From: Escherichia phage vB_EcoS_HZ_ZJUN2
Strand: one strand, 5' to 3'
Length of the DNA: 64,000 nucleotides
Sequence record: PP216084
Below are positions 1 to 12,217 of this stretch, piece after piece. Every line of letters starts with the position of its first letter. Within the stretch, counting starts at the first letter, position 1. A program made the translations under genes and the position numbers. The notes beneath the pieces are model-generated. The model made no database searches, had not been told where the DNA came from, and saw only the letters and a program-made list of their open reading frames with translations.

Positions 1-190
1 ATTATTCTCATTTAAGAAGTGGAATGATTCTCATTTAAGAAGTGGAATGCGAATGATAATTATTCTCATTTAAGAAGCGGAATGAGAACTATTCAAGAAG
101 TGGAATGAGAACTATTCAAGAAGCGAAATGATTCTCATCCTAGAAAGGGAATGCAAATGATAATGATTCTCATTTAAGAATGGAAGTGAG
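1..190. repeat. Degenerate tandem direct repeats, about 7 copies of a 23-30 bp unit (consensus ttctcatttaagaagtggaatga)
   Basis: Unit reiterated back to back across 1-190; contiguous, no unique spacers. Confidence 0.8.
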
Positions 191-315
191 AAACACTGTT
201 ATTTAAGTTATCCACAGACTTATTAACAGCACGATTTGACTTGACAGAATCCTAGCCATTTTGAGGCGTTATCCACCGACTTATCCACAGCTTATTCTAC
301 TGTATAAATATACAG
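184..315. repeat. Left arm of ~130 bp inverted repeat with three DnaA-box-like 9-mers and a 16 bp palindrome
   Basis: TTATCCACA at 208-216 and 281-289, TTATCCACC at 269-277; palindrome ctgtataaatatacag at 300-315; reverse complement aligns with 3648-3780. Confidence 0.75.
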
Positions 316-514
316 TATTCCTATGCAGTGAATAATTCTAATATAGGCTTAAAACGTCCTGAATCGCATTCTAGCGCGTTTTATTTTGGTGGGGATACTA
401 AAACAAGGGCAAAACTGGAGGAGGCTTAGAAATTAGTTAGCTCGCTAACGATCACACAAGGCGACACGTAACACCCTAATCATTAGCAGGCTAACCATCG
501 CGGGCGCGGTCAAA

Positions 515-538
515 TGAGAATCATTCTCATTTGAGAAT
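515..538. repeat. Interlocked short palindromes (tgagaat-c-attctca and attctca-ttt-gagaat)
   Basis: Direct reading; sequence related to the 1-190 repeat unit. Confidence 0.6.
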
Positions 539-682
539 TGGGGGCGCTCCCTGATAGTTGCGCCCGTGATTATTATAGTAGTGGGCAACCGTTACGCTTT
601 GCCCACTCCCGCCACTCATCTTGCTGTCTAGACTTGCGACGGCGTACTAAAAACCGCTTATACCAGTGATTAAACCATCGTT

Positions 683-886
683 TCATAGATCCCCCTCGGG
701 TAGTCGATGCGTGATCTTCTCCTCTTCCCCGTAGGAATCGACTAAATGCTGATAATAACCATCATGATCATAAATCACCTTATCATACTCACCACGCTCA
801 ACCGCTTGCCGGTTTTCCGGCGTATCGGGCACATAAAAAACGTCAACCATTGTACTGATTTTGGTTACAACAATTTTATTGCTCAT
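683..886 (-). CDS. Hypothetical protein, 67 aa
   Basis: ORF in track; acidic, no recognisable motif; last gene of minus-strand block. Confidence 0.5.
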   Translation of the reverse strand: MSNKIVVTKISTMVDVFYVPDTPENRQAVERGEYDKVIYDHDGYYQHLVDSYGEEEKITHRLPEGDL

Positions 887-996
887 AATAACGCCCTAGT
901 AAATATATTTTTGCCAATAGCGGCGAACGTTATCGCCACCAGCGGAATCATTAGCTGCCTTACTATTACCAACGAAAATATATAATCTCATTAGTA

Positions 997-1158
997 TTAT
1001 TTTCCCCGCATTAATTTATACATAACTAACATCCCACAAAACTGACCTAAAATAGTGCAGACAACAAGTGATAACACAATATTGCCTATGGTGTTATAAG
1101 TAACTACACCAACAATAAGGGATAATGCATACCCTAGCAGGGCAATATAAACAGCCAT
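997..1158 (-). CDS. Small hydrophobic membrane protein, 53 aa (below ORF-track cutoff)
   Basis: Hand translation MAVYIALLGYALSLIVGVVTYNTIGNIVLSLVVCTILGQFCGMLVMYKLMRGK; ATG 10 nt downstream of the stop of 1168-1509; AGGT upstream. Confidence 0.4.
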   Translation of the reverse strand: MAVYIALLGYALSLIVGVVTYNTIGNIVLSLVVCTILGQFCGMLVMYKLMRGK

Positions 1159-1167
1159 ATTATTTAC

Positions 1168-1509
1168 CTATTTTCGAAACGCTGTTTCAATACTATCAGC
1201 CGTGGATTGAATATACGCGCCTTTCATGATCAGGCGCTCGGTGCATATCTTGCGAAAAATATTAATAAAATCATCCTCATTTTCTGCAATTAATGCCTCA
1301 CCCATAACCTGAACGTCGCAAGATGCAAAGGTCAAAAATTGAAATGCTAGTTCACGGGCAACAACCGCATTAATCTTATAATGCGCCTTTCCCTCGTAAA
1401 TATTAACAACGCCCTTATAATCAGGCGAAAGCTGATTTAAGTAGTTTGCTAATAATCCCGGGCGGCAATTAGTAACAAAGCGATTGCCCTCGTAAATGAT
1501 CATTTGCAT
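1168..1509 (-). CDS. Hypothetical protein, 113 aa
   Basis: ORF in track; start ATG overlaps stop of upstream small ORF (ATGCAAATGA). Confidence 0.6.
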   Translation of the reverse strand: MQMIIYEGNRFVTNCRPGLLANYLNQLSPDYKGVVNIYEGKAHYKINAVVARELAFQFLTFASCDVQVMGEALIAENEDDFINIFRKICTERLIMKGAYIQSTADSIETAFRK

Positions 1510-1631
1510 AACCTCCCGATCAGATAGCCTGATAATAACATAAAGATCCCCAACGAAATGGGGTCATTCTTAAATAAGGTGGCGATAAAACCGCCAGCCA
1601 TTGCAAGGAGAACAACAAAAACGCTTTTCAT
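1500..1631 (-). CDS. Small two-helix membrane peptide, 43 aa (below ORF-track cutoff)
   Basis: Hand translation MKSVFVVLLAMAGGFIATLFKNDPISLGIFMLLSGYLIGRLCK; start ATG overlaps TGA stop of 1628-1840 (ATGA coupling). Confidence 0.4.
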   Translation of the reverse strand: MKSVFVVLLAMAGGFIATLFKNDPISLGIFMLLSGYLIGRLCK

Positions 1632-1840
1632 AGTACCCCACGAAACGCAGCGTAAAAGGTGGCAAAATGTTTAACTGTTTCAGCTATCACGTTGCCGCGC
1701 TTATCAAATTTTTTCTCAGTAACACGAAAGGCATTTTTATTACGTGCTACATATTCGATTTTACAGTCTGGACGCTCGAACGTGTTAACGTCCACCAGCT
1801 TAAAGCCTTTGGAACGAGCAAGGGAAACATTACGAATCAT
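1628..1840 (-). CDS. Hypothetical basic protein, 70 aa
   Basis: ORF in track; AAAGGAGAATAA RBS immediately upstream. Confidence 0.55.
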   Translation of the reverse strand: MIRNVSLARSKGFKLVDVNTFERPDCKIEYVARNKNAFRVTEKKFDKRGNVIAETVKHFATFYAAFRGVL

Positions 1841-1842
1841 TT

Positions 1843-1992
1843 TTATTCTCCTTTACTAGTCATGCAGCCCAGCAGATAAGAAAATGCAGCGATACCCGCG
1901 CCGATAATAACCGCGTGAACATCGAAAGCTATTGCAAACAAAGATAAAATAGCGCCCAAGATACCCGCCAGAATAGCTCGAAAAATAACCAT
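1843..1992 (-). CDS. Small membrane protein, 49 aa (below ORF-track cutoff)
   Basis: Hand translation MVIFRAILAGILGAILSLFAIAFDVHAVIIGAGIAAFSYLLGCMTSKGE; AGGAGA RBS upstream; its 3' end holds the RBS of the next gene. Confidence 0.4.
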   Translation of the reverse strand: MVIFRAILAGILGAILSLFAIAFDVHAVIIGAGIAAFSYLLGCMTSKGE

Positions 1993-2039
1993 TTTTATTC
2001 TCCTAGTTAGTGGGGGCGAAAGTAACGCCCCGTTATTAA

Positions 2040-2270
2040 TTACATTAAAACGATTTTGGCGGCTTGTTTTTTGGTGCAGTGTTCCGCTTTCAGGGTATCC
2101 AGCAAAAAGCCCGCCGTTTGCTGATCGATTTGATCATTATCATAAAGCGCCTGAATGGTGGTGTAAGTTTTAGCAATGCCGTATTCTTGCACCATTTCTT
2201 GAATGATCCAGCGATTTGATACCCAGCCTTTTCCAGTGAAAAGAGCGTCAGAAGAAGAAAAAGCAACCAT
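2040..2270 (-). CDS. Hypothetical protein, 76 aa
   Basis: ORF in track; followed on the minus strand by GC hairpin 2013-2031. Confidence 0.55.
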   Translation of the reverse strand: MVAFSSSDALFTGKGWVSNRWIIQEMVQEYGIAKTYTTIQALYDNDQIDQQTAGFLLDTLKAEHCTKKQAAKIVLM

Positions 2271-2331
2271 TATAAGCCTCCAAAATTTTTTGGGAAATTT
2301 TCAACCGTCCTCGAACGGTGTAAAGGCATTA

Positions 2332-2362
2332 TAACAAAAAGGCCGCCATAATCGGCGACCTT
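2332..2362 (-). terminator. Hairpin plus U-run, candidate intrinsic terminator after the 331 aa gene
   Basis: aaggccgcc-ataatc-ggcgacctt stem-loop at 2339-2362 with A-run 2334-2340 on the plus strand (U-run on minus). Confidence 0.45.
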
Positions 2363-2385
2363 TACAAAACTTTACATTAGACTAA

Positions 2386-3381
2386 TTATTGCTCGTTTTC
2401 GGTGTTAGTGGTAAAAGTAGAAATATCAATGCCCTTCACCATTTCATCGATCATTTCAGCAATGTTAAAACTTTGTACCATTTCTAGCATTGCCGCTTCC
2501 ATAGCTGCACCCGCTACCGCTTTCGCCTTCTGGTTACTCGGGGCGTACTGGTCAACCGCTACGCTCAGCAGGTTGGCAATGACTACTCGACCAATCGGCG
2601 TATCAATATAACCTTTAATCATGAACGGTGCTTTTTTAGCCGCTACTTTCGTGATTTGAGTCAATGCAATTTTACCCGCTTCCAGTTTTGCAGCATTTAC
2701 AACGGCGGACTTATTAGCGGCAACGATATTAGCGATCTTGGTCATAGTATTTTTTCCTTTGTTTTCAGTGATTTGAGTGTTAACGCTTTGAGTGTTAGAA
2801 TTTACAGTATGTTTTTCTATATTGTCAATAGGCTGATCCTCATCTTTCCAGAAAGAAAAGCCCGCTCTTTCGATATCCCCATCATATACGTATGGGTATA
2901 CTTCCGACGGTAACAAAAAATTGCCATCATCATCAAAGGCCATTACAGCCGCCAGACGATACCCGTCACCGATTGACCGATTCCAGCCAACGGATAAATA
3001 ACGCCAAAATGAATCAAGAAAATTTTCTACATCATAAAGATCCTTATCATAAGGCTCATAATTTTCTATTGAAAAAACTTCTAAGCCCGCCCCCGCATCA
3101 TAGGCTTTTACTGTGCTACCTTTTACAATTATAAAATCAGTATCCGGCCCCCTACTAGTAAGCAAGTGATTATCTCGATTATATAAGATAATCGTTGCCC
3201 CTTGCTTATATAAGGGTAGAAAGCTACGCATATCATAGGCGTCGAAATCATCAAAAAAATTCTGGTGAATATCTTCGACTTTGTTAACAAAGTGCTTAAT
3301 GCTGGTTGTTCTGCTACCGTCCAGCAGGTTGCGCAGCGCACCTTTTAAGACGGTTGCGTTATCTGGTTTATATAGCCTCAT
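2386..3381 (-). CDS. Hypothetical two-domain protein, 331 aa, pre-early-like region
   Basis: Long ORF with even codon usage; N-terminal acidic domain and C-terminal Ala/Lys-rich helical domain; no motif recognised. Confidence 0.7.
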   Translation of the reverse strand: MRLYKPDNATVLKGALRNLLDGSRTTSIKHFVNKVEDIHQNFFDDFDAYDMRSFLPLYKQGATIILYNRDNHLLTSRGPDTDFIIVKGSTVKAYDAGAGLEVFSIENYEPYDKDLYDVENFLDSFWRYLSVGWNRSIGDGYRLAAVMAFDDDGNFLLPSEVYPYVYDGDIERAGFSFWKDEDQPIDNIEKHTVNSNTQSVNTQITENKGKNTMTKIANIVAANKSAVVNAAKLEAGKIALTQITKVAAKKAPFMIKGYIDTPIGRVVIANLLSVAVDQYAPSNQKAKAVAGAAMEAAMLEMVQSFNIAEMIDEMVKGIDISTFTTNTENEQ

Positions 3382-3647
3382 TTGTTGGCCTCCCTCGTTA
3401 ATCGGTAGAAGAATGATAAAGGTAATTTTCTAGCATAGGCAAATATTATTTTACCTTTTTATTTTCCTTGCCTAACACCTAGTTTTATGCTAACCGCGCA
3501 GCGGTATAGTAAAGAGCAAAACACGGCGGAGCCACCAGGTCGACGCGTTGAGGCTTTACTTTAATATTACCTCACTGCGTTTAGCTCGTTAGAAAGCGTT
3601 TTAGGCGGCCTAAAATTGATTGCAGTCGTTAACACTGTCTTTCTACC

Positions 3648-3780
3648 CTGTATATTTATACAGTAGGATAACCTGTGGATAAGTCTGTGTAAAAGCCCTC
3701 ATATCGCCGCCTATCGTGTCAAATTATTTTGTGCTGTGGATAACGTTGTGGATAACTTAAATGATAGTGGTTCTCACTTA
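3648..3780. repeat. Right arm of the inverted repeat with three DnaA-box 9-mers (reverse orientation) and palindrome
   Basis: TGTGGATAA at 3674-3682, 3735-3743, 3747-3755; palindrome ctgtatatttatacag at 3648-3663; matches reverse complement of 184-315 with a central indel. Confidence 0.75.
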
Positions 3781-3950
3781 GGCCGATAGTTTCTTATAGT
3801 TATTATTTTTATAGTGATGATTTCTTATAGTTATTATTATAACGGTGATGATTTCTTATAGTTATTATTATATTGGTGATTATTTTTATAGTTATTATTT
3901 TTATAGTTATTATTTCTCATTAATTTATAATTATATTATATATCATGAAA
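3781..3950. repeat. AT-rich tandem repeat array (unit about 24 bp, gatgatttcttatagttattatt)
   Basis: At least 5 head-to-tail copies visible; the plus-strand ORF 3845-4048 is a translation artefact of this array. Confidence 0.75.
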
Positions 3951-4290
3951 TAGTTAGTTGGCTAATAAGATTTTCCGGGATTAATAGTCTGCTAATAATT
4001 CAGACCGTTACAATCCACCAGCATGATTATCATCCTAGCAATTATTAGTCTGCTATCTTTCTAATACACAACAACAAATAAAAGTCAAATATTTTATTTA
4101 ATAAATTAACGCAACGCCCCTCGATTTTTAAAAGTCAAGACCTTTTCCAACTATTTTTCAATTTTGCGTTTGTTAACGATTTGTTAAGTCGAAAATAGGC
4201 GGCCTAAAACGCGCCAGAACGCAATAAAGTTTTTAGCTATCCCATCATAAGGGATCACGCCGTTTATCGCTGCCACGAGCTTTTTAGATT

Positions 4291-4318
4291 TTGTCAAGTA
4301 GGGCAAGGCAAATATAAA
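4291..4318 (+). promoter_or_regulatory. Sigma70-like promoter candidate TTGTCA-16-TATAAA
   Basis: Hexamers at 4291-4296 and 4313-4318 in an AT-rich divergent control region. Confidence 0.35.
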
Positions 4319-4584
4319 TGAAAAATTTACTTGCCTATCTGCTATGTTTTGTGGTATTCGCGCGCCCGTTTCCTTTAAACTCGGGCAATCGCCGGACGTG
4401 TTGCCTTCTTTACATTTCTTTACAAAAATAAGGTTGCTCCTTTTTCGTTGTTTGTTATTATTTATCTCGTAGGGCGGCAATGACGAACTACACGGCGGGA
4501 AGTTTACCGCCGCGCTCTTTAAAAATTGGGTATATCTTAAAGCCTATCGGCGGTAAACTTATTACATTATAAGGAATCGACGAT

Positions 4585-4788
4585 ATGAAACAAACTTTAT
4601 TGATCACTGGTAAACCTATTAAGGCACTGGACAGCAGAACAAAAAATTTGTTGACAGTAGCGCAAAGATCGGTAAAATATCGATTTAAGCAGTACAAGAA
4701 AGGCCGCCAGCAAGGTTTGGAAATGATCTGGCGAAATATTATGATCGACCTGAAGGAAAATCATAAAAAACTGCAAAAAACAGCTTGA
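4585..4788 (+). CDS. Hypothetical small basic protein, 67 aa
   Basis: AAGGAA 8 nt upstream of ATG; Lys/Arg-rich; overlapped by antisense ORFs judged spurious. Confidence 0.35.
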   Translation: MKQTLLITGKPIKALDSRTKNLLTVAQRSVKYRFKQYKKGRQQGLEMIWRNIMIDLKENHKKLQKTA

Positions 4789-5017
4789 CACCATAGCCGA
4801 TAGGCTTTAAGATGTACCCAGTTCGATAAGAGCGATAACTTGATAAAATCTGACGGCCGGTACTTGCCATAATGTGCCCCGCCCCCTAACTGGGATATAG
4901 CGGCCCGCGTGGAGTTCCTTAAATTGATTTTATAATGGCGAGTGGATTTTTTCTTATTATCTGCTAGAAAGTAGCAGATAATGCGGAACAATCCACAAAT
5001 AACTTGGAGTTTATACC

Positions 5018-5269
5018 ATGAAAAACGTTATTAATGCGCCGAAAGTTGGTCAATCCGTTTTTATTCCTTTCGTTACTAAAACGGACGAATTAACCGGAAA
5101 AGCCGAACGTATTAAAGGCGCGGCGCTCATGCCGTTCGATACAATCGATGCGGTATACGCTGAAAATGAGCGCAGTAACAACGGAAAAACCGTTTTTAGC
5201 GTTCGCGTTAAATCTGGCGACGTTGTAAAGGTTGTTCAACGCAACGAAAAATGGGAAGCTGTATTATAA
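5018..5269 (+). CDS. Hypothetical pre-early protein, 83 aa
   Basis: Conserved initiation context cttGGAGtttatacc-ATG; followed by hairpin 5285-5310. Confidence 0.5.
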   Translation: MKNVINAPKVGQSVFIPFVTKTDELTGKAERIKGAALMPFDTIDAVYAENERSNNGKTVFSVRVKSGDVVKVVQRNEKWEAVL

Positions 5270-5284
5270 ATTAGTGTTAACTTT

Positions 5285-5310
5285 ATATGCCCCGAACTAC
5301 TGGGGCATAT
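5285..5310 (+). terminator. GC-rich palindromic hairpin after a pre-early cassette
   Basis: atatgcccc-gaactac-tggggcatat. Confidence 0.4.
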
Positions 5311-5370
5311 AACGATTAACATTATGTTAATCATTTAATCCCTTAAATTAAATTAATTGGAGTTTATATC

Positions 5371-5787
5371 ATGACTAACGTTAAAACCGAAAAAGCCGCA
5401 AAATTTTCTTGGAATGAAGAAAACACTCAGCAGGCTGTTACCATGTATCAGCAGTTAATCAACGAAAACGGGCTAGAATTCGCAAATAGCGACGGCTTGA
5501 AAGAGATCGCAAAGGCAGTAGGCGCGGCTTCTCCCGTATCCGTTCGGTCAAAATTGACCAGCGCGAAAGCCTATCAGAAAAGCGACAAGCCGCGCAAAGT
5601 TGGCGGCGGTAGTTCAATCCGCAAGGCTCATTATGTGCGAGTGATTGCAAAACATGCCATCGATTCCGGCATTATCAAGGACGCCGATGATCTGGCAAGC
5701 CTTGAAAGCGCGAAATTAGAAACGTTGGACGTCGTGGCGCAACTATTGGGCGTTGCCGATGAAGTAAAACAAGCCGCAGGCGAATAA
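5371..5787 (+). CDS. Putative DNA-binding protein, 138 aa (possible A2-like candidate)
   Basis: Conserved RBS context; carries the motif EIAKAVGAASPVSVRSKLTSAKAY also seen in 52881-53648 and 57438-57848; size fits a ~15 kDa pre-early protein. Confidence 0.5.
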   Translation: MTNVKTEKAAKFSWNEENTQQAVTMYQQLINENGLEFANSDGLKEIAKAVGAASPVSVRSKLTSAKAYQKSDKPRKVGGGSSIRKAHYVRVIAKHAIDSGIIKDADDLASLESAKLETLDVVAQLLGVADEVKQAAGE

Positions 5788-5794
5788 ATTTAAT

Positions 5795-5816
5795 TAGCGG
5801 GGAATACTCCCCGCTA
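5795..5816 (+). terminator. GC-rich palindromic hairpin after a pre-early cassette
   Basis: tagcgggg-aatact-ccccgcta. Confidence 0.4.
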
Positions 5817-5844
5817 TAATTTCCCTTTAATTGGAGTTATTAAA

Positions 5845-6042
5845 ATGATTTTCTTTCCTACTGAATCGCTCATTCTAGGCTTATTTATTATGGCGGCCTC
5901 GCTATTGTTCGCATATTTTCAAAATGACTTAGATTCATATTATTTTAAACGCAAATCTAAGTTAGCAAAGCGGTTAGGTCTGATTTGTTTTATTGCCGCC
6001 GTTGTTTGTGGTGTTAGTTCTAGCCTGATGCCTATTAGTTGA
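5845..6042 (+). CDS. Small membrane protein, 65 aa, two predicted TM helices
   Basis: Conserved RBS context ccctttaattGGAGtt; hydrophobic segments LILGLFIMAASLLFAY and LGLICFIAAVVCGV. Confidence 0.45.
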   Translation: MIFFPTESLILGLFIMAASLLFAYFQNDLDSYYFKRKSKLAKRLGLICFIAAVVCGVSSSLMPIS

Positions 6043-6054
6043 ATGTTGCAAATT

Positions 6055-6122
6055 ATAACGCCTATTATTCAAGGCGTTATATCTGGCAATATTTGCCAAT
6101 AACAAACGTTTTTTTTTTTTTT
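6055..6122 (+). terminator. Two hairpins followed by a T14 run
   Basis: ataacgcc...ggcgttat (6055-6080), tggcaatatttgccaa (6084-6099), T-run 6107-6122. Confidence 0.5.
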
Positions 6123-6147
6123 AATCCCTTTAATGGAGTTTATTATT

Positions 6148-7818
6148 ATGATTATTTCCGCAGAAAAACAAACCGTTATCCTGAAGCTGGCCGCTGACTT
6201 TAATTTTTATGGTAAACGTCTGCGCGCCACCCGGCTGGAAGTCTGCGACGATATATCAAAAGCGGTTTACGATACTGCAAAACACTCTACCGCGATTTGT
6301 GATTGGTTAGAAGCAAATAAACCAGCGAAACCGAAAACAGCGAAAGCGGTGAAAGCCATTAAAAACGACGAGCGCCCCGAAGCGGCTGGAATTATTTCTA
6401 GCACGGTGGAACAGTGGGAAGTAAAACAAGGTAAACGTTTTATTATTACATCGATTCAGAATAATACTTTCCCGCATAAAAACTTTTTAGCCTCGCTTGA
6501 GCAATATGCCCAATTTATTGGCGCTGATTTGCTTGTTTCTAAGTATATTTATAATAAAAACGGCTTTCAAAATGGTGAAGGCGCGGACGGTGTAAAATAT
6601 GATTCCGCGTTTGATAAATATATTTGCAGTAAAAACGTGTTTTTAAATAACCGCCGTTTTGCTTTCATGGCTGAAATTAATGTTTTGCCCACCGCAGATT
6701 ATCCGCTATCTGGATTCGCAGAAACTGCAACGGCGCTTAATCTGGAAGGTCTGGCAATTGGTCACGCTAAAATCACCGCCGAAAGCGTTCCAGCTTTAAA
6801 AGGTGAAGTGGTGCGCCGCATGTATTCCACCGGAACGGCAACGCTCAAAAACTACATTCAGCAGAAAGCAGGACAGAAAGCGGAGGCGCTGCATAATTTC
6901 GGGGCGCTGATTGTCGAGTTCGACGAAGACGGTGAGTTTTTTGTGCGCCAGCTTGAAACGATGGACGAAAGCGGCATGTTTTATGATCTGAATATCTGCG
7001 CCACTCCCGCCGGATGTTTTGAAACGTCGGGGCATGTTTTAGGTTTACAGTATGGCGACGTGCACGCTGAAAAATTAGATGAGGAGTGCGCCGCAGCGTC
7101 ATGGGGTCATGGTGATACTTATGGGCTAGTGGATATTCTTAAACCAAAATATCAATTCGTCCATGACGTTCACGATTTTACATCACGCAACCATCACAAC
7201 CGCGCTTCCGGTGTATTCCTAGCAAAACAATACGCCGCCGGACGTGATAAGGTTATGGATGATCTTATCGATACGGGGCGCGTACTGGAAGCAATGGAGC
7301 GCGATTTCTCGCAAACAATCATTGTTGAATCGAATCACGATCTGGCGTTATCTCGTTGGCTTGATGATCGAAATGCTAACATCAAAGACGACCCAGCAAA
7401 CGCCGAATTATATCACCGCCTGAATGCGGCTATCTATGCAGCTATCGCAAATCATGACGACACTTTCAACGTGCTAGATTATGCGCTGCGTAATGTTGCA
7501 GGCTGCGAGTTTAACGCCATTTTTTTAACGACTGATCAATCTTTTAAGATTGCAGGCATTGAGTGCGGTGTACACGGTCACAACGGCATTAACGGCAGCC
7601 GTGGAAACCCAAAACAATTTAAGAAATTGGGCAAATTAAACACCGGACACACCCACACCGCCAGCATTTACGGCGGCGTATACACGGCGGGCGTCGCTGG
7701 TTCCCTCGATATGGGCTACAACGTTGGCGCGTCAAGCTGGACGCAAACGCATTTAATTACATACGCAAACGGGCAACGCACTTTAATTGACTTTAAGAAC
7801 GGCAAATTTTTCGCATAA
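6148..7818 (+). CDS. A1: A1-like pre-early protein, 556 aa, calcineurin-like metallophosphatase (candidate DNase)
   Basis: Start moved to ATG at 6148 (the ATGGAG at 6133 is the RBS); motifs GDVHA, GHGD, ESNHD, GVHGHNG, TGHTHT; length equals recalled T5 A1. Confidence 0.6.
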   Translation: MIISAEKQTVILKLAADFNFYGKRLRATRLEVCDDISKAVYDTAKHSTAICDWLEANKPAKPKTAKAVKAIKNDERPEAAGIISSTVEQWEVKQGKRFIITSIQNNTFPHKNFLASLEQYAQFIGADLLVSKYIYNKNGFQNGEGADGVKYDSAFDKYICSKNVFLNNRRFAFMAEINVLPTADYPLSGFAETATALNLEGLAIGHAKITAESVPALKGEVVRRMYSTGTATLKNYIQQKAGQKAEALHNFGALIVEFDEDGEFFVRQLETMDESGMFYDLNICATPAGCFETSGHVLGLQYGDVHAEKLDEECAAASWGHGDTYGLVDILKPKYQFVHDVHDFTSRNHHNRASGVFLAKQYAAGRDKVMDDLIDTGRVLEAMERDFSQTIIVESNHDLALSRWLDDRNANIKDDPANAELYHRLNAAIYAAIANHDDTFNVLDYALRNVAGCEFNAIFLTTDQSFKIAGIECGVHGHNGINGSRGNPKQFKKLGKLNTGHTHTASIYGGVYTAGVAGSLDMGYNVGASSWTQTHLITYANGQRTLIDFKNGKFFA

Positions 7819-7828
7819 TTAAATTTAT

Positions 7829-7850
7829 AAGCGGGGTATATACCCCGCTT
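7829..7850 (+). terminator. Perfect 22 bp palindromic hairpin after A1-like gene
   Basis: aagcggggtata-taccccgctt. Confidence 0.45.
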
Positions 7851-7883
7851 ATGCCCCTTATTAAATTAATTGGAGTTATAAAC

Positions 7884-8276
7884 ATGAAAAAGCAAAATAT
7901 TCCATTCGATCGCGCTCAATCTTCCATTGTTCTGGTTTATTCAAATGGTGAGCGTTACCACGTCGAGGCCGGTCACGTTGTTGATGATTTAATCGAGTTT
8001 AATGAGGCGCTACAGATCACGACTTTCGCCTATACGCAAGGCCGCGCTAGTAGTCACATAAAGGCCGCAGGCGTTTATGTTGATACGGTGAAGCAGGAAA
8101 CGATTATCATCGACGCCGTAAAAGCTGGCCTAGCGTTTGCAGTTGTCGCACCTTGTCCCGCTTGCCTTGATGATCAGCTATCGAGTGCAAAGGTCTACAT
8201 TTGCGCGGGTATTCGTTCCCATGTATCCGGCGAAGATATTAGTTTTATCGCTGATGCGCTGGCTTATGGTCTTTGA
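7884..8276 (+). CDS. Hypothetical pre-early protein, 130 aa
   Basis: Start set to ATG at 7884 downstream of conserved ttaattGGAGtt; followed by hairpin 8290-8316. Confidence 0.5.
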   Translation: MKKQNIPFDRAQSSIVLVYSNGERYHVEAGHVVDDLIEFNEALQITTFAYTQGRASSHIKAAGVYVDTVKQETIIIDAVKAGLAFAVVAPCPACLDDQLSSAKVYICAGIRSHVSGEDISFIADALAYGL

Positions 8277-8289
8277 TAGTTGATTTATT

Positions 8290-8316
8290 ATTGCCCGCTG
8301 ATAAATAGCGGGCAAT
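8290..8316 (+). terminator. GC-rich hairpin after pre-early cassette
   Basis: attgcccgct-gataaat-agcgggcaat. Confidence 0.4.
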
Positions 8317-8356
8317 GCTGGATAAACTAAATCCCTTTAATGGAGAACGTAACAAA

Positions 8357-9091
8357 ATGAATCAAGTTAAAACGAATATTACCCGTAATTTTCCGCATGT
8401 TTCCCGCGTCATGATTTGGGATCTTGATGGCACTATCGTTAATTCATTCCATCGCGTAGCGCCTTGCTTTGATAGTGAGGGTAATCTAGATTTAAATAAG
8501 TATAAAAATGAGGCGTGCAAACATGATTTAATAATGCAAGATACACTCCTACCGCTTGTTACCTATATGCGCCAATGTATGAATGATGTTAATACGTTAA
8601 ACATTATTTGCACCGCTCGATTAATGAGCAAGTCGGACTATTATTATTTGCGCAAACAAGGATTGCGCGGGCGTGGGGATAGTAATATCCGTGTATTTTC
8701 CCGCGATACACTGCACAAATATTTTGAAGCTGATAAGGTTAGCGAAATATACCACAGCAAGGACGCAGTTTATAAAAGCTACTACTTTGAGTTATTTAAG
8801 CAGTTATATCCGAACGCTGATTTCACGATGATCGACGACCATAAAGGAGTATTGGCGGCGGCGGCATCATATGGATTTAAAACTCTGGACGCGCAAGCCG
8901 TTAATGATATTCTATCGATTGGGGTCACATTGATAGGTGAAACCTTTATCGACGAATCTCTTGAGGATGATAATGATTATCAGTTCCTAGCAGATCGCTT
9001 GCAATTATGTTGGGAAAGTATGACAGAAGAAGAACGCGCAGAATATAGTTGCAGCCCGCAACAATATATTGAGAAATTAAAAGTTGCGTAA
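8357..9091 (+). CDS. dmp: HAD-superfamily phosphatase, 244 aa, probable 5'-deoxyribonucleotidase (Dmp-like)
   Basis: Start set to ATG at 8357 after GGAGAACG RBS; HAD motif I DLDGT, motif II CTAR, C-terminal acidic DD; pre-early location. Confidence 0.5.
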   Translation: MNQVKTNITRNFPHVSRVMIWDLDGTIVNSFHRVAPCFDSEGNLDLNKYKNEACKHDLIMQDTLLPLVTYMRQCMNDVNTLNIICTARLMSKSDYYYLRKQGLRGRGDSNIRVFSRDTLHKYFEADKVSEIYHSKDAVYKSYYFELFKQLYPNADFTMIDDHKGVLAAAASYGFKTLDAQAVNDILSIGVTLIGETFIDESLEDDNDYQFLADRLQLCWESMTEEERAEYSCSPQQYIEKLKVA

Positions 9092-9108
9092 TAATTAAAG
9101 TTGAAATT

Positions 9109-9145
9109 GTTTCACCTTGCAATTAAAATGGTTGCAGGGTGAAAC
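9109..9145. terminator. 14 bp-arm inverted repeat hairpin between convergent transcription units
   Basis: gtttcaccttgcaa-ttaaaatgg-ttgcagggtgaaac (one mismatch). Confidence 0.45.
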
Positions 9146-9256
9146 AGTTAGCATGGTAATAGTAACGGGGGTGGCGGTTAGCAGACTAAGTATTCTCCCC
9201 CAACCCACTGCACCCACCCACGCGTACGTAATCCAAAGAATTTGGCAAAAGTCAAA

Positions 9257-9502
9257 TTAGTGCATAGAATGGTCATCAAACCTGTGTTCTGGTCTAAACT
9301 CACGGAATCTCTTCCGCGACGCCCGAGAACCATCATTCCACTCCAGCTCAAACTCCGCACGTTTCTCATCGAACTTCCGCTCCCTTTCCGCAATCTCCCG
9401 CGATACTTCCGCAATATATTTACGATGCCTGTCGATAGCCGCAGTCATTCCGAAAACTCCCGCGAGTATCCCGGTAATAAAAGCAATTACAATACTAAAC
9501 AT
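9257..9502 (-). CDS. Hypothetical membrane-anchored protein, 81 aa
   Basis: N-terminal TM helix then charged coiled segment; same strand as llp; overlapped by plus-strand ORF judged less likely. Confidence 0.4.
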   Translation of the reverse strand: MFSIVIAFITGILAGVFGMTAAIDRHRKYIAEVSREIAERERKFDEKRAEFELEWNDGSRASRKRFREFRPEHRFDDHSMH

Positions 9503-9605
9503 TATTTATATTCCCGCAACTTACGTTCAATACGAGCTAAGTGGTTATCCAAGACACATTGCCCTAGAATTACCACAACTAATAAAACAATAATTATTAC
9601 TCCCA

Positions 9606-9791
9606 TTAAATCCACCCCGCCATAGCTGCTAACCAAAAGCCTACGAAGACTAGGAATAATACAAAACCAAATCCATAAATATTAATCCACGCTTCATACA
9701 CTTCCCCGCGTCTGTTCTTTCTTTTGTTGCCGTTTGACATGTTTTTCATACTCCCGTAAATGTGGTATCTGGGATATTCTAGAAATTGCAC
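9606..9791 (-). CDS. Hypothetical small protein, 61 aa, C-terminal TM helix (uncertain)
   Basis: GTG start; overlaps alternative ORF 9694-9879 in another frame; cannot be resolved by eye. Confidence 0.25.
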   Translation of the reverse strand: MQFLEYPRYHIYGSMKNMSNGNKRKNRRGEVYEAWINIYGFGFVLFLVFVGFWLAAMAGWI

Positions 9792-9981
9792 GAACCATTA
9801 TAACTGTTCCTATGAGATCCATCATTTCATCAAACCCAGATTCTTCTAGAAGAAATGATGTTCCCATTACATCTTCCATAGTGTCTTGTATGACGTCCTG
9901 AATGATTTCATTAATCGCACTGTGAACTGCTTTGCCCTAGGAGTCATCTCAAGTGGCATTGGTTCCTGGAAGGGCTTCTCC

Positions 9982-10215
9982 TCAGAAAACTCCTTCACAT
10001 GTATTCCCCTCGGTAAAGTAGCTTACTGGAGCCCAGAAAGATCCATAGGCCATGATTGGTGCCACCAGGAACATATCCCCTTTTCTATCAAAAACATTAG
10101 CCTTATATTTCACATGATCTTGTACATAGTAGGCCTCACATTTAATATCTTTAGGCCCAAAAGTAGAGCAAGCCGAAAGAAGTACCACTGCCATAGCTAA
10201 AAATAATTTTTTCAT
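9982..10215 (-). CDS. llp: Lytic-conversion lipoprotein Llp-like, 77 aa precursor
   Basis: Signal peptide with lipobox LLSAC (Cys17), mature 61 aa; divergent from the receptor-binding gene as recalled for T5. Confidence 0.7.
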   Translation of the reverse strand: MKKLFLAMAVVLLSACSTFGPKDIKCEAYYVQDHVKYKANVFDRKGDMFLVAPIMAYGSFWAPVSYFTEGNTCEGVF

Positions 10216-10294
10216 TTACATTCTCCTCTGTTTAATTTATAATACTATTATACAGAATTATATCAATATAGGCAATTAAATTTTTGGAGAACTT

Positions 10295-12217
10295 ATGAGT
10301 TTTTTCGCTGGCAAGCTAAATAACAAATCTATACTCTCTCTACGTAGGGGTAGTGGCGGAGATACTAATCAACATATTAATCCTGACTCTCAGACCATAT
10401 TCCATTCAGATATGCCCCATGTAATTATAACGGAAACTCATTCCACGGGGTTAAGACTAGATCAAGGGGCTGGAGACTACTATTGGTCTGATATGCCTAG
10501 CAGAATCACCCAGTTACATAATAATGATCCTAATAGGGTTGTGCTGACGGAGATTGAGTTCTCAGATGGCTCTAGACATATGCTATCTGGCATGTCTATG
10601 GGGGTAGGGGCTAAAGCGTATGGAATTATAAATCCGCAGGTCATGTCTCAAGGTGGTTTAAAAACACAAATAACAGCTAGTGCTGATCTATCTCTTGATG
10701 TAGGCTATTTTAATAGTGGAACTAGTGGAACTATTCCCCAGAAGCTTAGAGACGGTACTGGATGTCAGCATATGTTTGGCGCCTTTAGTGGACGTAGAGG
10801 GTTTGCATCTAGTGCAATGTATTTAGGGGGTGCCGCTCTCTATAAATCTGCCTGGGACGGTTCAGGATATATTGTGCCTGCTGCAGGATCCATAACTATC
10901 CCTAGCGACTACGTTAGGCATCCCGGAGCTAGAAACTTTGGATTTAACGCCATATATGTTCGTGGTAGATCTTGTAATAGAGTTCTTTATGGTATGGAAG
11001 GGCCCAACTACACCACTGCTGGAGCTGTACATGGGGCGTCGAGTTCAGGGGCTCTTAACTTTATGTCTAATCCTAGCAATCCCTCGGCCCCTAAGTACTC
11101 TGTAGGTTTCGCACGTGCTGATCCCACTAACTATGCGTATTGGGAAAGTATGGGTGATCCGAATGATGCTGCTAATGGGCCCATAGGTATATATAGTGAG
11201 CACCTCGGTATTTATCCATCTAAAATTACCTGGTATGTTACTAACTTAGTGTATAATGGTTCAGGATATAGTATTGATAGTGGGCTATTTACTGGCAATG
11301 ATATTAAACTTAGTCCAAGAGAATTTATTATTAAAGGTATTAACGTTAATAATACATCGTGGAAGTTTATTAACTTTGTTGAGAAAAACTTTAATGTAGG
11401 GGGCAGAGCTGATTTTCGTGATGTTGGGTGTAACTTGAGTATGGGTTCCCCCTCTACTGGAGTTTCTGGAATAGCCACTTTTGGATTACCAACTGCGGAG
11501 AGTAATAACACTCCTAGTATTAAGGGGGGTAACGTTGGTGGTTTAAATACTAATGTAGTTAGTATTTATAACTTTTTACCTTCAGCATCTTGGTATGTTT
11601 CTAGTGATCCCCCAAAAATAGGCAGCAATTATGGGGATGTTTGGAGTGAGAATCTTTTACCTTTAAGGTTACTAGGAGGTAGCGGAAGTACTGTACTATC
11701 TGGTAACATAGTATTTCAGGGTAATGGTTACGTGCATGTTGGTACCGTGGGACTGGATCTTAATAGTAGTAGAAATGGTGCAATTGTATGTACTATGGAG
11801 TTCCTAGATGACACATGGTTGTCTGCCGGTGGTATTGGCTGCTTTAATCCTACGGAGATGCTATCTAAAGGTGCAGAATACGGAGATAGTAGGTTCAGAA
11901 TGGGTGGCAATACTATTGATAAAAAGCTACACCAAATATTATCTTTGCCTGCGGGGGAATACGTACCATTTTTTACTATTAAAGGTACTGTAGTAAACGC
12001 TTGTAAATTACAGGCTGCTGCGTACAACCCAACTCCGTACTGGGTATCTGGGTTGCCCGGATCCGTAGGTCAAACAGGTTACTATACTCTAACATATTAT
12101 ATGAGAAATGATGGAAATAATAATATCTCTATTTGGTTAGAATCCTCTATGAGCAATATAATTGGCATGAAAGCATGCTTACCAAATATTAAACTTATAA
12201 TTCAACGCCTTACCTAA
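10295..12217 (+). CDS. oad: Receptor-binding tail protein pb5-like, 640 aa
   Basis: Length equals recalled T5 pb5; Gly/Ser/Asn-rich beta-type composition; adjacent to llp. Confidence 0.65.

What the first reader, a model, noticed from the sequence alone, without database searches (positions are those of the whole stretch)
1..540. Dense tandem repeats and palindromes at the window start, possibly the terminal-repeat boundary or injection-stop region
About 7 copies of a degenerate 23-30 bp unit are followed by DnaA boxes, palindromes and several GC hairpins (for example gggcgc...gcgccc and gtgggcaa...ttgcccac near 540-600). In T5 a repeat-rich injection stop signal lies near the inner edge of the ~10 kb terminal repeat, and this window places the repeats about 10 kb from the llp/pb5 junction.
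Basis: partly seen in the sequence, partly recalled or inferred. Interest (0 to 1): 0.5.

Follow-up and report, generated by a model that had tools for sequence, protein, structure and literature searches.

The report
T5-type injection-stop region with Fur boxes
The repeats at the window start are this phage's copy of the known, repeat-rich "injection stop" region in the terminal repeat of T5-like phages; what may be new is that its conserved palindromes look just like binding sites for the host iron regulator Fur.

Summary
Window 1-188 holds eight tandem units (23 or 35 nt; the first is cut by the window edge). They are followed by two pairs of DnaA boxes, an AT palindrome, a perfect 25-nt palindrome and two GC hairpins.

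The region is the reverse-complemented orthologue of the annotated T5 injection stop signal (NC_005859 9140-10149), which Davison calls Repeat Region 3. It includes the 132-nt DnaA-box module and that module's inverted partner at 3648-3779.

The terminal-repeat edge next to the array is not in the window. In T5 it lies about 0.5 kb beyond position 1. The repeat's other edge is near window 9214, next to llp/pb5.

The 35-nt units and the 25-nt palindrome are high-scoring Fur boxes. No paper in the searched library reports this. A matrix built from 11 E. coli Fur operators puts its best hits of the whole 64 kb here. A matrix built only from other T5-like arrays recovers ryhB, fecI, fecA, fhuA, fepD/entS, fepB/entC, feoA and fur from 343 kb of E. 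coli.

These boxes sit at fixed offsets around the DnaA module in 26 related loci. They are absent from Serratia and Vibrio relatives.

This is a known element in a new member. Fur binding and any role in the injection pause are untested.

The parts
1..188 (-). Tandem array of 8 units (orthologue of T5 DRE/DRC repeats). In T5 orientation the 23-nt unit reads CATTCCACTTCTTAAATGAGAAT, and the 35-nt variants occupy 50-84 and 154-188. The first unit is cut by the window edge. The nominal 7.9% shear point of T5 maps to about window 40.
   Evidence: shear-point coordinate from 10.1101/866236
49..73 (.). Fur-box-like site 1 (GCGAATGATAATTATTCTCATTTAA). It gives two overlapping 19-mers 6 bp apart, scoring 19.9 and 16.1 with the E. 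coli-derived Fur matrix. The core TGATAATTATTCTCA is 1 mismatch from the Fur 7-1-7 motif.
153..177 (.). Fur-box-like site 2 (GCAAATGATAATGATTCTCATTTAA), scoring 19.3 and 18.1. It is the first 35-nt unit next to the DnaA module and is conserved at offset +42/+48 in T5-like phages.
184..315 (-). 132-nt DnaA-box module (orthologue of T5 IRD'-spacer-IRC'). Boxes lie at 208-216, 220-228, 269-277 and 281-289, as two pairs each separated by 3 bp.
   Evidence: description in 10.1101/866236
298..317 (.). AT-rich palindrome TACTGTATA-AA-TATACAGTA at the end of the module. It is also present in the partner module.
510..534 (.). Perfect 25-nt palindrome TCAAATGAGAATCATTCTCATTTGA, which is Fur-box-like site 3 (scores 17.7 and 14.5). 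It is conserved at offset -315 from the DnaA module in most relatives. In T5 itself it lies inside a stretch of about 116 bp that is missing.
   Evidence: (I16)
542..565 (.). GC hairpin GGGCGC-N12-GCGCCC with no T-run. T5 has a different hairpin+T5 terminator at the equivalent place.
581..607 (.). GC hairpin GTGGGCAA-N11-TTGCCCAC. It lies inside a possible 37-aa ORF (573-686, minus strand), which relatives annotate only as hypothetical.
683..886 (-). Last conserved rightward pre-early ORF (T5.017 homologue, phrog_6973). It marks the coding edge of the untranslated region.
3648..3779 (+). Inverted partner of the DnaA-box module (T5 IRC-spacer-IRD), 77% complementary to 184-315. DnaA boxes on the minus strand lie at 3674-3682, 3686-3694 (TTTTACACA), 3735-3743 and 3747-3755. 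Together with the first module this makes 8 boxes.
9200..9230 (.). Approximate outer (left-end) boundary of the terminal repeat, placed by colinearity with T5 position 111532. The unique llp/pb5 side follows.

Best explanation
Window 1-~610 is the orthologue, in a T5-like phage, of the untranslated 'Repeat Region 3 / injection stop signal' that ends the first-step-transfer DNA in the terminal repeat. That identity is shown here.

The mechanism I think most likely is inferred, not shown. [quoted passage not shown]
- DnaA would bind the eight boxes of the two inverted 132-nt modules. This is Davison's proposal.
- Fur-Fe2+ would bind the strong Fur boxes that flank the right-hand module. Three of these are in the window at 49-73, 153-177 and 510-534. 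One more lies just beyond the window start in relatives.

The resulting nucleoprotein complex would hold, bend or block the DNA at the cell envelope and so contribute to the pause, until the pre-early proteins A1 and A2 release it.

My estimates for each step:
- Identity: about 0.95.
- Fur binds these sites in vitro: about 0.7.
- Fur binding matters to the phage: about 0.3.
- Fur contributes to the pause itself: about 0.2.
For: Identity:
- The region matches 376 phage records, nearly all named as Salmonella or Escherichia phages; in those with the terminal repeat annotated the match lies inside it.
- It aligns with the T5 iss feature and is colinear with T5's right end over 12 kb.
- The 132-nt inverted modules carry 8 DnaA boxes in 3-bp-spaced pairs, exactly as described for 25 T5-like phages.
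- The neighbours are A1, A2 and dmp.

Fur boxes:
- Three of the five matches (at most 2 mismatches) to TGATAATNATTATCA in 64 kb lie at 54-529.
- A matrix built from 11 textbook E. coli Fur operators scores 19.9, 19.3, 18.1 and 17.7 here. These are the top hits of the window apart from one site inside dmp. Genuine operators score 8.7-18.7 in leave-one-out, and the 99th percentile of the best score in shuffles of the region is 15.2.
- The hits come in pairs 6 bp apart, the spacing reported for footprinted Fur clusters (PMC2189734).
- A matrix built only from other phages' arrays places 9 of its top 15 hits in 343 kb of E. coli inside known Fur-regulated intergenic regions, which make up 0.72% of the bases. 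The best hit is ryhB at 28.2. None of 200 column-permuted control matrices reached 9.
- Two further hits, at acnA and oppA, are strong Fur clusters predicted by Chen et al..
- The sites occupy fixed offsets (-315, +42/48, later units) in 26 related loci. They persist in a Klebsiella Sugarlandvirus.
- Natural variants of the first box keep a higher Fur score than random mutants with the same number of changes in 16 of 19 cases.

Host factor rather than phage factor: first-step transfer stops without phage protein synthesis. This is established T5 knowledge (Lanni 1968), recalled and not tested here.
Against: - No binding data exist for Fur or for DnaA on this DNA.
- Serratia phage Slocum and Vibrio phage phi 3 keep A1, A2, DnaA boxes and repeats near the repeat edge but have no Fur-like cluster. 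Fur boxes therefore cannot be a universal requirement for two-step transfer.
- T5 itself lacks the stretch holding the 510-534 palindrome and the 542-565 hairpin, yet it is the phage in which two-step transfer was defined. Those two elements are therefore dispensable.
- Unlike most E. coli Fur clusters, these sites do not overlap a convincing sigma-70 promoter.
- As far as I know, T5 grows on fur mutants (my recollection, not checked here).
- A phage protein with a Fur-like specificity would produce the same sequence statistics.
Confidence: 0.7

Rival explanations
1. The repeats and palindromes are operators for a phage protein, most plausibly the DNA-binding pre-early protein A2 (with A1). 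That protein would act here to restart transfer or to cut and release the DNA. The resemblance to Fur boxes would be coincidence or mimicry.
For: A2 is encoded at window 5371-5787 and sources name it a DNA-binding protein. A1 and A2 are required for second-step transfer. Palindromic sites suit a dimeric binder. Davison proposes that A1/A2 cleave at a palindrome in this area.
Against: The arrest itself does not need phage protein synthesis (established knowledge, recalled). A2 is retained in Slocum and phi 3, which lack these boxes. The A2 model is all-helical (pLDDT 84) and has no significant fold match to Fur or to any solved DNA-binding protein. The phage-derived matrix retrieves true Fur operators with high specificity, which coincidence would not predict.
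Confidence: 0.2
2. This is the classical structure-only model. The dense palindromes, hairpins and bent repeats form cruciforms or knots that physically jam the DNA in the tail or channel, with no sequence-specific protein involved.
For: Four palindromes or hairpins fold much better than shuffled controls. The literature describes the region as rich in repeats and palindromes that may form secondary structures.
Against: T5 lacks two of the four palindromes. The conserved positions match two specific protein-binding consensus sequences, DnaA and Fur, rather than merely preserving base-pairing. The 23-nt units are direct repeats, not inverted ones. As far as I recall, T5 ejects its whole genome in vitro with purified FhuA (not checked here).
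Confidence: 0.15
3. The protein-binding array acts on transcription rather than on DNA entry. It would be a roadblock or insulator between the rightward pre-early operon, which ends at 683-886, and the leftward early genes beyond the repeat. Alternatively it would provide iron-responsive control of a weak promoter.
For: The region lies between convergent transcription units in T5. The window version has no canonical intrinsic terminator where T5 has one. Fur is classically a repressor.
Against: Promoter-like matches are only 9 of 12 and at chance frequency (6 found against 3.8 expected). Nothing here tests transcription.
Confidence: 0.12
4. The DnaA-box modules mark a replication origin, or the array is a packaging or terminase recognition signal at the genome end.
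For: There are eight DnaA boxes in ordered pairs, reminiscent of oriC. The region lies about 0.5 kb from a genome terminus in the right-hand copy.
Against: T5 origins map near the centre of the genome, and the replication genes are not yet in the cell during first-step transfer (10.1101/866236). The repeats that straddle the actual repeat edge are a different family (TGTGCAAATCCGACA) and lie outside the window.
Confidence: 0.05

Closest known systems
Injection stop signal region of phage T5 (NC_005859 misc_feature 9140-10149; 'Repeat Region 3' of Davison, 10.1101/866236; first sequenced by Heusterspreute et al. 1987)
   Same: It is orthologous and colinear, with the same order of parts: last pre-early ORF, palindromes, the 131/132-nt DnaA-box module with its inverted partner about 3.3 kb away, then 23/35-nt repeats. 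The position in the roughly 10-kb terminal repeat is the same, and A1, A2 and dmp are the neighbours.
   Different: Identity to T5 is about 87% over 12 kb. This phage carries about 116 bp that T5 lacks, holding a perfect Fur-like palindrome, a GC hairpin and TTAGC/GCTAA palindromes. T5 has an intrinsic terminator at that spot instead. The number of array units differs among relatives, whose arrays span 178-308 nt.
Fur operators of Enterobacteria (19-bp Fur box GATAATGATAATCATTATC; 7-1-7 motif TGATAATNATTATCA; for example the ryhB, fhuA, fecI and fepB/entC operators)
   Same: The sequence scores equal or exceed those of genuine operators. Overlapping sites lie 6 bp apart. The phage motif and the E. 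coli motif retrieve each other.
   Different: The sites do not overlap a recognisable promoter. They are embedded in a tandem array inside a virulent phage's terminal repeat. The preferred half-site is TGAGAAT rather than TGATAAT. Binding has not been tested.
DnaA-box clusters such as oriC or the datA locus
   Same: There are multiple consensus TTATCCACA boxes in fixed spacing and orientation.
   Different: There is no evidence of an unwinding element or of initiation here. According to the literature, T5 origins lie elsewhere.

Membership tests
T5-type injection-stop region (Repeat Region 3 of the terminal repeat) | Sequence homology and colinearity with the annotated T5 iss (9140-10149) | tested here: met
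   87-95% identity to T5-like phages; window 22-12000 corresponds to T5 121235-108644 on the minus strand
T5-type injection-stop region (Repeat Region 3 of the terminal repeat) | Untranslated stretch after the last rightward pre-early ORF, within about 1 kb of the end of the ~10-kb terminal repeat that borders the early genes | tested here: met
   the T5.017 homologue is at 683-886; the repeat's other end is near 9214; by T5 coordinates the edge next to the array lies about 0.5 kb beyond window position 1, so it was not seen directly
T5-type injection-stop region (Repeat Region 3 of the terminal repeat) | 131-nt IRD'-spacer-IRC' carrying two pairs of DnaA boxes 3 bp apart, with an inverted partner several kb to the left | tested here: met
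   arms 184-315 and 3648-3779, 132 nt, 77% complementary; 4 + 4 boxes
T5-type injection-stop region (Repeat Region 3 of the terminal repeat) | Adjacent DRE/DRC-type direct repeats | tested here: met
   eight 23/35-nt units, homologous unit by unit with T5 and 18 other arrays
T5-type injection-stop region (Repeat Region 3 of the terminal repeat) | GC palindrome carrying the major nick, followed by TGTGCAAATCCGACA (DRD) repeats across the repeat edge | not testable with these tools
   in T5 these lie beyond the point where the window begins
T5-type injection-stop region (Repeat Region 3 of the terminal repeat) | DNA transfer actually pauses here during infection | not testable with these tools
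   This needs a blender or qPCR entry assay. Even in T5 the responsible element is unmapped.
Fur operator (Fur box) | Match to the Fur consensus at the level of genuine operators | tested here: met
   scores of 17.7-19.9 against 8.7-18.7 for 11 real operators in leave-one-out; 99th percentile of shuffles 15.2
Fur operator (Fur box) | Overlapping sites displaced by 6 (or 3) bp | tested here: met
   hit pairs at 49/55, 153/159 and 510/516; the criterion is from PMC2189734
Fur operator (Fur box) | Specificity: the motif picks out the Fur regulon and not other AT-rich DNA | tested here: met
   9 (11 counting the predicted acnA and oppA clusters) of the top 15 hits in 343 kb of E. coli; 0 of 200 permuted matrices reach 9
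Fur operator (Fur box) | Overlap with a sigma-70 promoter, as for about 83% of E. coli Fur clusters | tested here: not met
   only 9-of-12 promoter-like matches, at chance frequency
Fur operator (Fur box) | Metal-dependent binding by Fur protein | not testable with these tools
   This needs EMSA, footprinting, FURTA or ChIP.
DnaA-dependent replication origin | Cluster of consensus DnaA boxes | tested here: met
DnaA-dependent replication origin | Replication starts here (unwinding element, copy-number peak) | not tested
   The literature places T5 origins near the centre of the genome.
Terminal-repeat boundary | Transition from duplicated to unique sequence inside 1-540 | tested here: not met
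   all of 1-540 maps inside the T5 repeat (to about position 9704 of 10219); the repeat's other boundary is near window 9214
Intrinsic transcription terminator | GC hairpin followed by a T-run | tested here: not met
   one search found none in 1-1200; T5's own terminator GGGGATCAGCTCCCC+TTTTT is replaced here

The most novel reading that the evidence does not exclude
In Tequintavirus, Epseptimavirus and Sugarlandvirus phages the first-step-transfer DNA ends in a conserved array of genuine Fur operators flanking the DnaA-box module. Under this reading the host iron regulator Fur, together with DnaA, is recruited to the incoming DNA and takes part in the 8% injection pause or its release. That would link the two-step injection of phages that enter through iron-regulated TonB-dependent receptors to the iron status of the cell.
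Probability: 0.25. Interest if true: 0.7.

Novelty: new member of a known kind. Interest (0 to 1): 0.4.

Why it matters
The element itself is textbook T5 biology, so finding it in another T5-like genome is ordinary. It is useful mainly for orienting the genome. It shows that the window runs, in reverse, from about 0.5 kb inside one genome end through the whole terminal repeat into llp/pb5.

How T5 stops injecting after 8% of its DNA remains unexplained almost 60 years after it was described. Only one host protein, DnaA, has been named as a candidate, and that on sequence grounds alone. The evidence here that the other conserved repeats are Fur boxes adds a second candidate host factor. It can be checked with standard reagents: Fur gel shifts, a Fur-titration assay, delta-fur or iron-chelated hosts, and box mutants.

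If Fur does not bind, the same data still define the exact conserved sites that whichever protein is responsible must recognise.

Tried and rejected
- The classical 19-mer GATAATGATAATCATTATC with at most 3 mismatches does not hit 1-540; it hits only the dmp site. The similarity shows up with the 7-1-7 core and with matrices.
- DnaA boxes with 1 mismatch are not enriched over the whole window (16 found, 17.9 expected). Only exact boxes are.
- No Rfam family matches 1-4200 at E<0.1. Small ORFs annotated in some relatives inside the array have no family support, and the 37-aa ORF at 573-686 has no PHROG match. I rejected RNA-gene and coding readings.
- No convincing promoter or intrinsic terminator was found.
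- The hairpin at 581-607 is not T5's annotated terminator, which is a different, T5-specific hairpin.
- For A2 as a Fur-like protein: Pfam and PDB sequence searches were empty. The AlphaFold model (pLDDT 84) has no significant Foldseek match in the PDB (best E 0.86).
- The A1-based locus search returned only close relatives, 89-98% identical. Distant relatives had to be fetched by tblastn.
- ArgR, Zur and IHF consensus sequences were compared by eye from memory and fit worse than Fur. They were not tested formally.
- Technical failures: one search was a term-length error, one search was an empty script, and got no answer from the script machine. The script was rerun successfully.
- The planned selection test on the -315 palindrome was dropped. 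Only the first-unit box was tested.

Full report
**Observation.**
Reading the sequence and running two repeat finders confirm a tandem array at the very start of the window.
- There are five 23-nt units at 4-26, 27-49, 85-107, 108-130 and 131-153, and two 35-nt units at 50-84 and 154-188.
- Positions 1-3 are the remnant of a further unit cut by the window edge.
- Downstream lie two pairs of DnaA boxes (208-216/220-228 and 269-277/281-289), each pair separated by 3 bp.
- Exact TTATCCACA occurs 5 times in the 64 kb against 0.67 expected, and only in this module and its partner.
- Four palindromes or hairpins fold far better than shuffled controls: 298-317; 510-534, which is a perfect 25-mer; 542-565; and 581-607.
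The unit count is 8, the unit sizes are 23 and 35 nt, and the feature runs to about 607.

**What it is.**
- The first kilobase matches 376 phage records, nearly all named as Salmonella or Escherichia phages. In the records where terminal repeats are annotated, the match falls inside them.
- Over 12 kb the window is colinear, in reverse complement, with the right end of T5. Window 22-12000 corresponds to T5 121235-108644.
- The RefSeq record of T5 annotates 9140-10149 of the repeat as 'injection stop signal (iss)', the repeat end at 10219, and a major nick at 9748/9749.
- Alignment shows that window 1-~890 corresponds to T5 ~9714-8950. The window therefore begins inside the array, about 35 nt short of the nick-bearing GC palindrome and about 0.5 kb short of the repeat edge.
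- The repeat's other edge maps near window 9214.
- The neighbours are A2 (5371-5787), A1 (6133-7818) and dmp (8315-9091).
- The repeat finder recovers a 132-nt inverted repeat between 184-315 and 3648-3779. These are the IRD'-spacer-IRC' and IRC-spacer-IRD of Wang and Davison. Together they carry eight DnaA boxes in 3-bp-spaced pairs, exactly as Davison described for 25 T5-like phages (10.1101/866236).
- His nominal shear point for the first-step DNA maps to about window 40, inside the array.
- The finding is therefore the orthologue of a known element. Because the two terminal repeats of T5 are identical, this sequence is the same as the left-hand copy that enters the cell first.

**State of knowledge.**
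Davison writes that the function of the DRE/DRC repeats is 'impossible to guess', and he proposes membrane-bound DnaA as the stop factor. Preprints from 2026 still call the mechanism poorly understood. None of the papers read mentions Fur. Full-text searches combining Fur terms with T5 terms returned nothing relevant.

**New reading of the repeats.**
The 35-nt units and the 25-nt palindrome contain 7-1-7 inverted repeats one or two mismatches from the Fur core TGATAATNATTATCA. Three of the five such matches in the 64 kb lie at 54-529. I tested this in both directions.
- *Forward test.* I built a matrix from the best site in each of 11 textbook Fur-regulated intergenic regions of E. coli MG1655: fepA/fes, fepD/entS, fepB/entC, fhuA, tonB, fecI, fecA, feoA, ryhB, cirA and fur.
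  - It converged on the classical consensus GATAATGATAATCATTATC.
  - Its top hits in the whole window are 49-67 (19.9), 153-171 (19.3), 159-177 (18.1) and 510-528 (17.7), interleaved with one site inside dmp (18.6).
  - Genuine operators score 8.7-18.7 in leave-one-out.
  - Shuffles of the region reach 15.2 at the 99th percentile.
  - The hits come in pairs 6 bp apart, which Chen et al. found typical of footprinted Fur clusters (PMC2189734).
- *Reverse test.* I built a matrix only from the arrays of other T5-like phages, excluding the window, and scanned 343 kb of E. coli with it.
  - Nine of its 15 best non-overlapping hits fell in the known Fur-regulated intergenic regions, which make up 0.72% of the bases. 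They are ryhB (the best hit, 28.2), fecI, fecA, fhuA, fepD/entS, fepB/entC (twice), feoA and fur.
  - None of 200 column-permuted palindromic control matrices reached nine (mean 0.7, maximum 6).
  - Two of the remaining hits, upstream of acnA and oppA, are strong Fur clusters predicted by Chen et al..

**Conservation.**
- In the related loci taken from viral contigs and GenBank (27 compared with the window's own copy included), the Fur-like sites sit at fixed offsets from the DnaA module. These offsets are -315, +42/+48, one or two later units, and the last unit of the array, which for this window lies just outside.
- Array length varies from 178 to 308 nt, but the strong boxes are always kept.
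- For the first box, natural variants keep a higher Fur score than random mutants with the same number of changes in 16 of 19 cases (mean 16.4 against 13.7). The sequences are related, so this is suggestive only.
- The Klebsiella Sugarlandvirus IME260 (A1 73% identical) has 35-nt units with Fur-like boxes at 9778-9866, just inside its repeat end.
- Serratia phage Slocum (A1 60%) and Vibrio phage phi 3 (A1 33%) keep DnaA boxes and GTGCAAAWCCGA-type repeats near the repeat edge but have no Fur-like cluster.
- T5 itself lacks about 116 bp that hold the 510-534 palindrome and the 542-565 hairpin. Those two elements are therefore dispensable for two-step transfer.

**Mechanism.**
What is shown:
- the identity of the region;
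- its anatomy;
- that its conserved sites are statistically indistinguishable from DnaA boxes and Fur boxes.

What is inferred:
- The arrest does not need phage protein synthesis (established T5 knowledge, recalled). Pre-existing host proteins are therefore the natural readers of these sites.
- My preferred model is that DnaA and Fur load onto the end of the first-step DNA and help to hold or block it until A1/A2 act.
- I put about 0.7 on Fur binding in vitro, but only about 0.2 on a role in the pause. The reasons are the lineage-restricted distribution, the lack of any binding data, and my recollection that T5 grows on fur mutants.

Rivals:
- The sites bind the phage protein A2. Its model is all-helical and has no significant structural relative.
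- A purely structural jam.
- A transcriptional roadblock between convergent units. No good promoter or terminator was found.
- An origin or packaging role, which the literature disfavours.

**Verdict.**
The added value is the Fur-box identification, which I could not find in the searched literature. It turns part of an old question into simple experiments. The interest score is moderate for that reason alone.

Noticed in passing
window 8963-8987: A perfect Fur 7-1-7 core TGATAATGATTATCA (matrix scores 16.5 and 18.6) lies inside dmp, coding D-D-N-D-Y-Q, about 230 bp from the outer end of the terminal repeat. It is conserved in T5 (repeat positions 228-252) and is even stronger in Klebsiella phage IME260 (197-221, score 22.7). 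Coding constraint and operator function cannot be separated here.
   Followed up: partly
window 3790-3917: A second tandem array (period 15/31, TTATAGTTATTATTT) lies directly beside the partner DnaA-box module. It mirrors the 'module plus array' layout of the finding but has no Fur-like boxes.
   Followed up: partly
window 433-452 and 478-498; L076 12063-12093; L075 7363-7489: Short TTAGC...GCTAA(C) palindromes in the window recur as tandem repeats in the iss-like regions of Serratia phage Slocum (ATTAGCTAACGATTA) and Vibrio phage phi 3 (a 30-nt unit, 4.2 copies). T5 itself lacks the stretch that holds them.
   Followed up: no
outside the window (T5 9730-10400 in L001; L075 7514-7794): The GC palindrome GCAGGGCAATTGCCCTGCGC carrying T5's major nick lies just beyond window position 1, as do the TGTGCAAATCCGACA repeats that straddle the repeat edge. 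Related GTGCAAAACCGA repeats occur in Vibrio phage phi 3. This makes them the most widely conserved feature of the repeat edge among the phages compared.
   Followed up: partly
window 4997-5030, 5350-5383, 7863-7896: A 34-nt block, AAATTAATTGGAGTTTATAnCATGA..., is repeated at the start of three pre-early ORFs, including A2 and the ORF between A1 and dmp. It looks like a shared translation-initiation region.
   Followed up: no
window 4513-4551 / 4796-4834 and 4942-4996: Further inverted repeats (39 nt at 85% complementarity, and 25 nt at 84%) lie in the untranslated stretch left of A2. They probably correspond to T5 Repeat Region 1.
   Followed up: no
window 5371-5787: The A2 protein gives a confident all-helical two-domain AlphaFold model (pLDDT 84). 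It has no significant match among solved structures (best Foldseek E 0.86) and no hit in the local Pfam copy. The protein database lists PF26822 for its relatives.
   Followed up: partly
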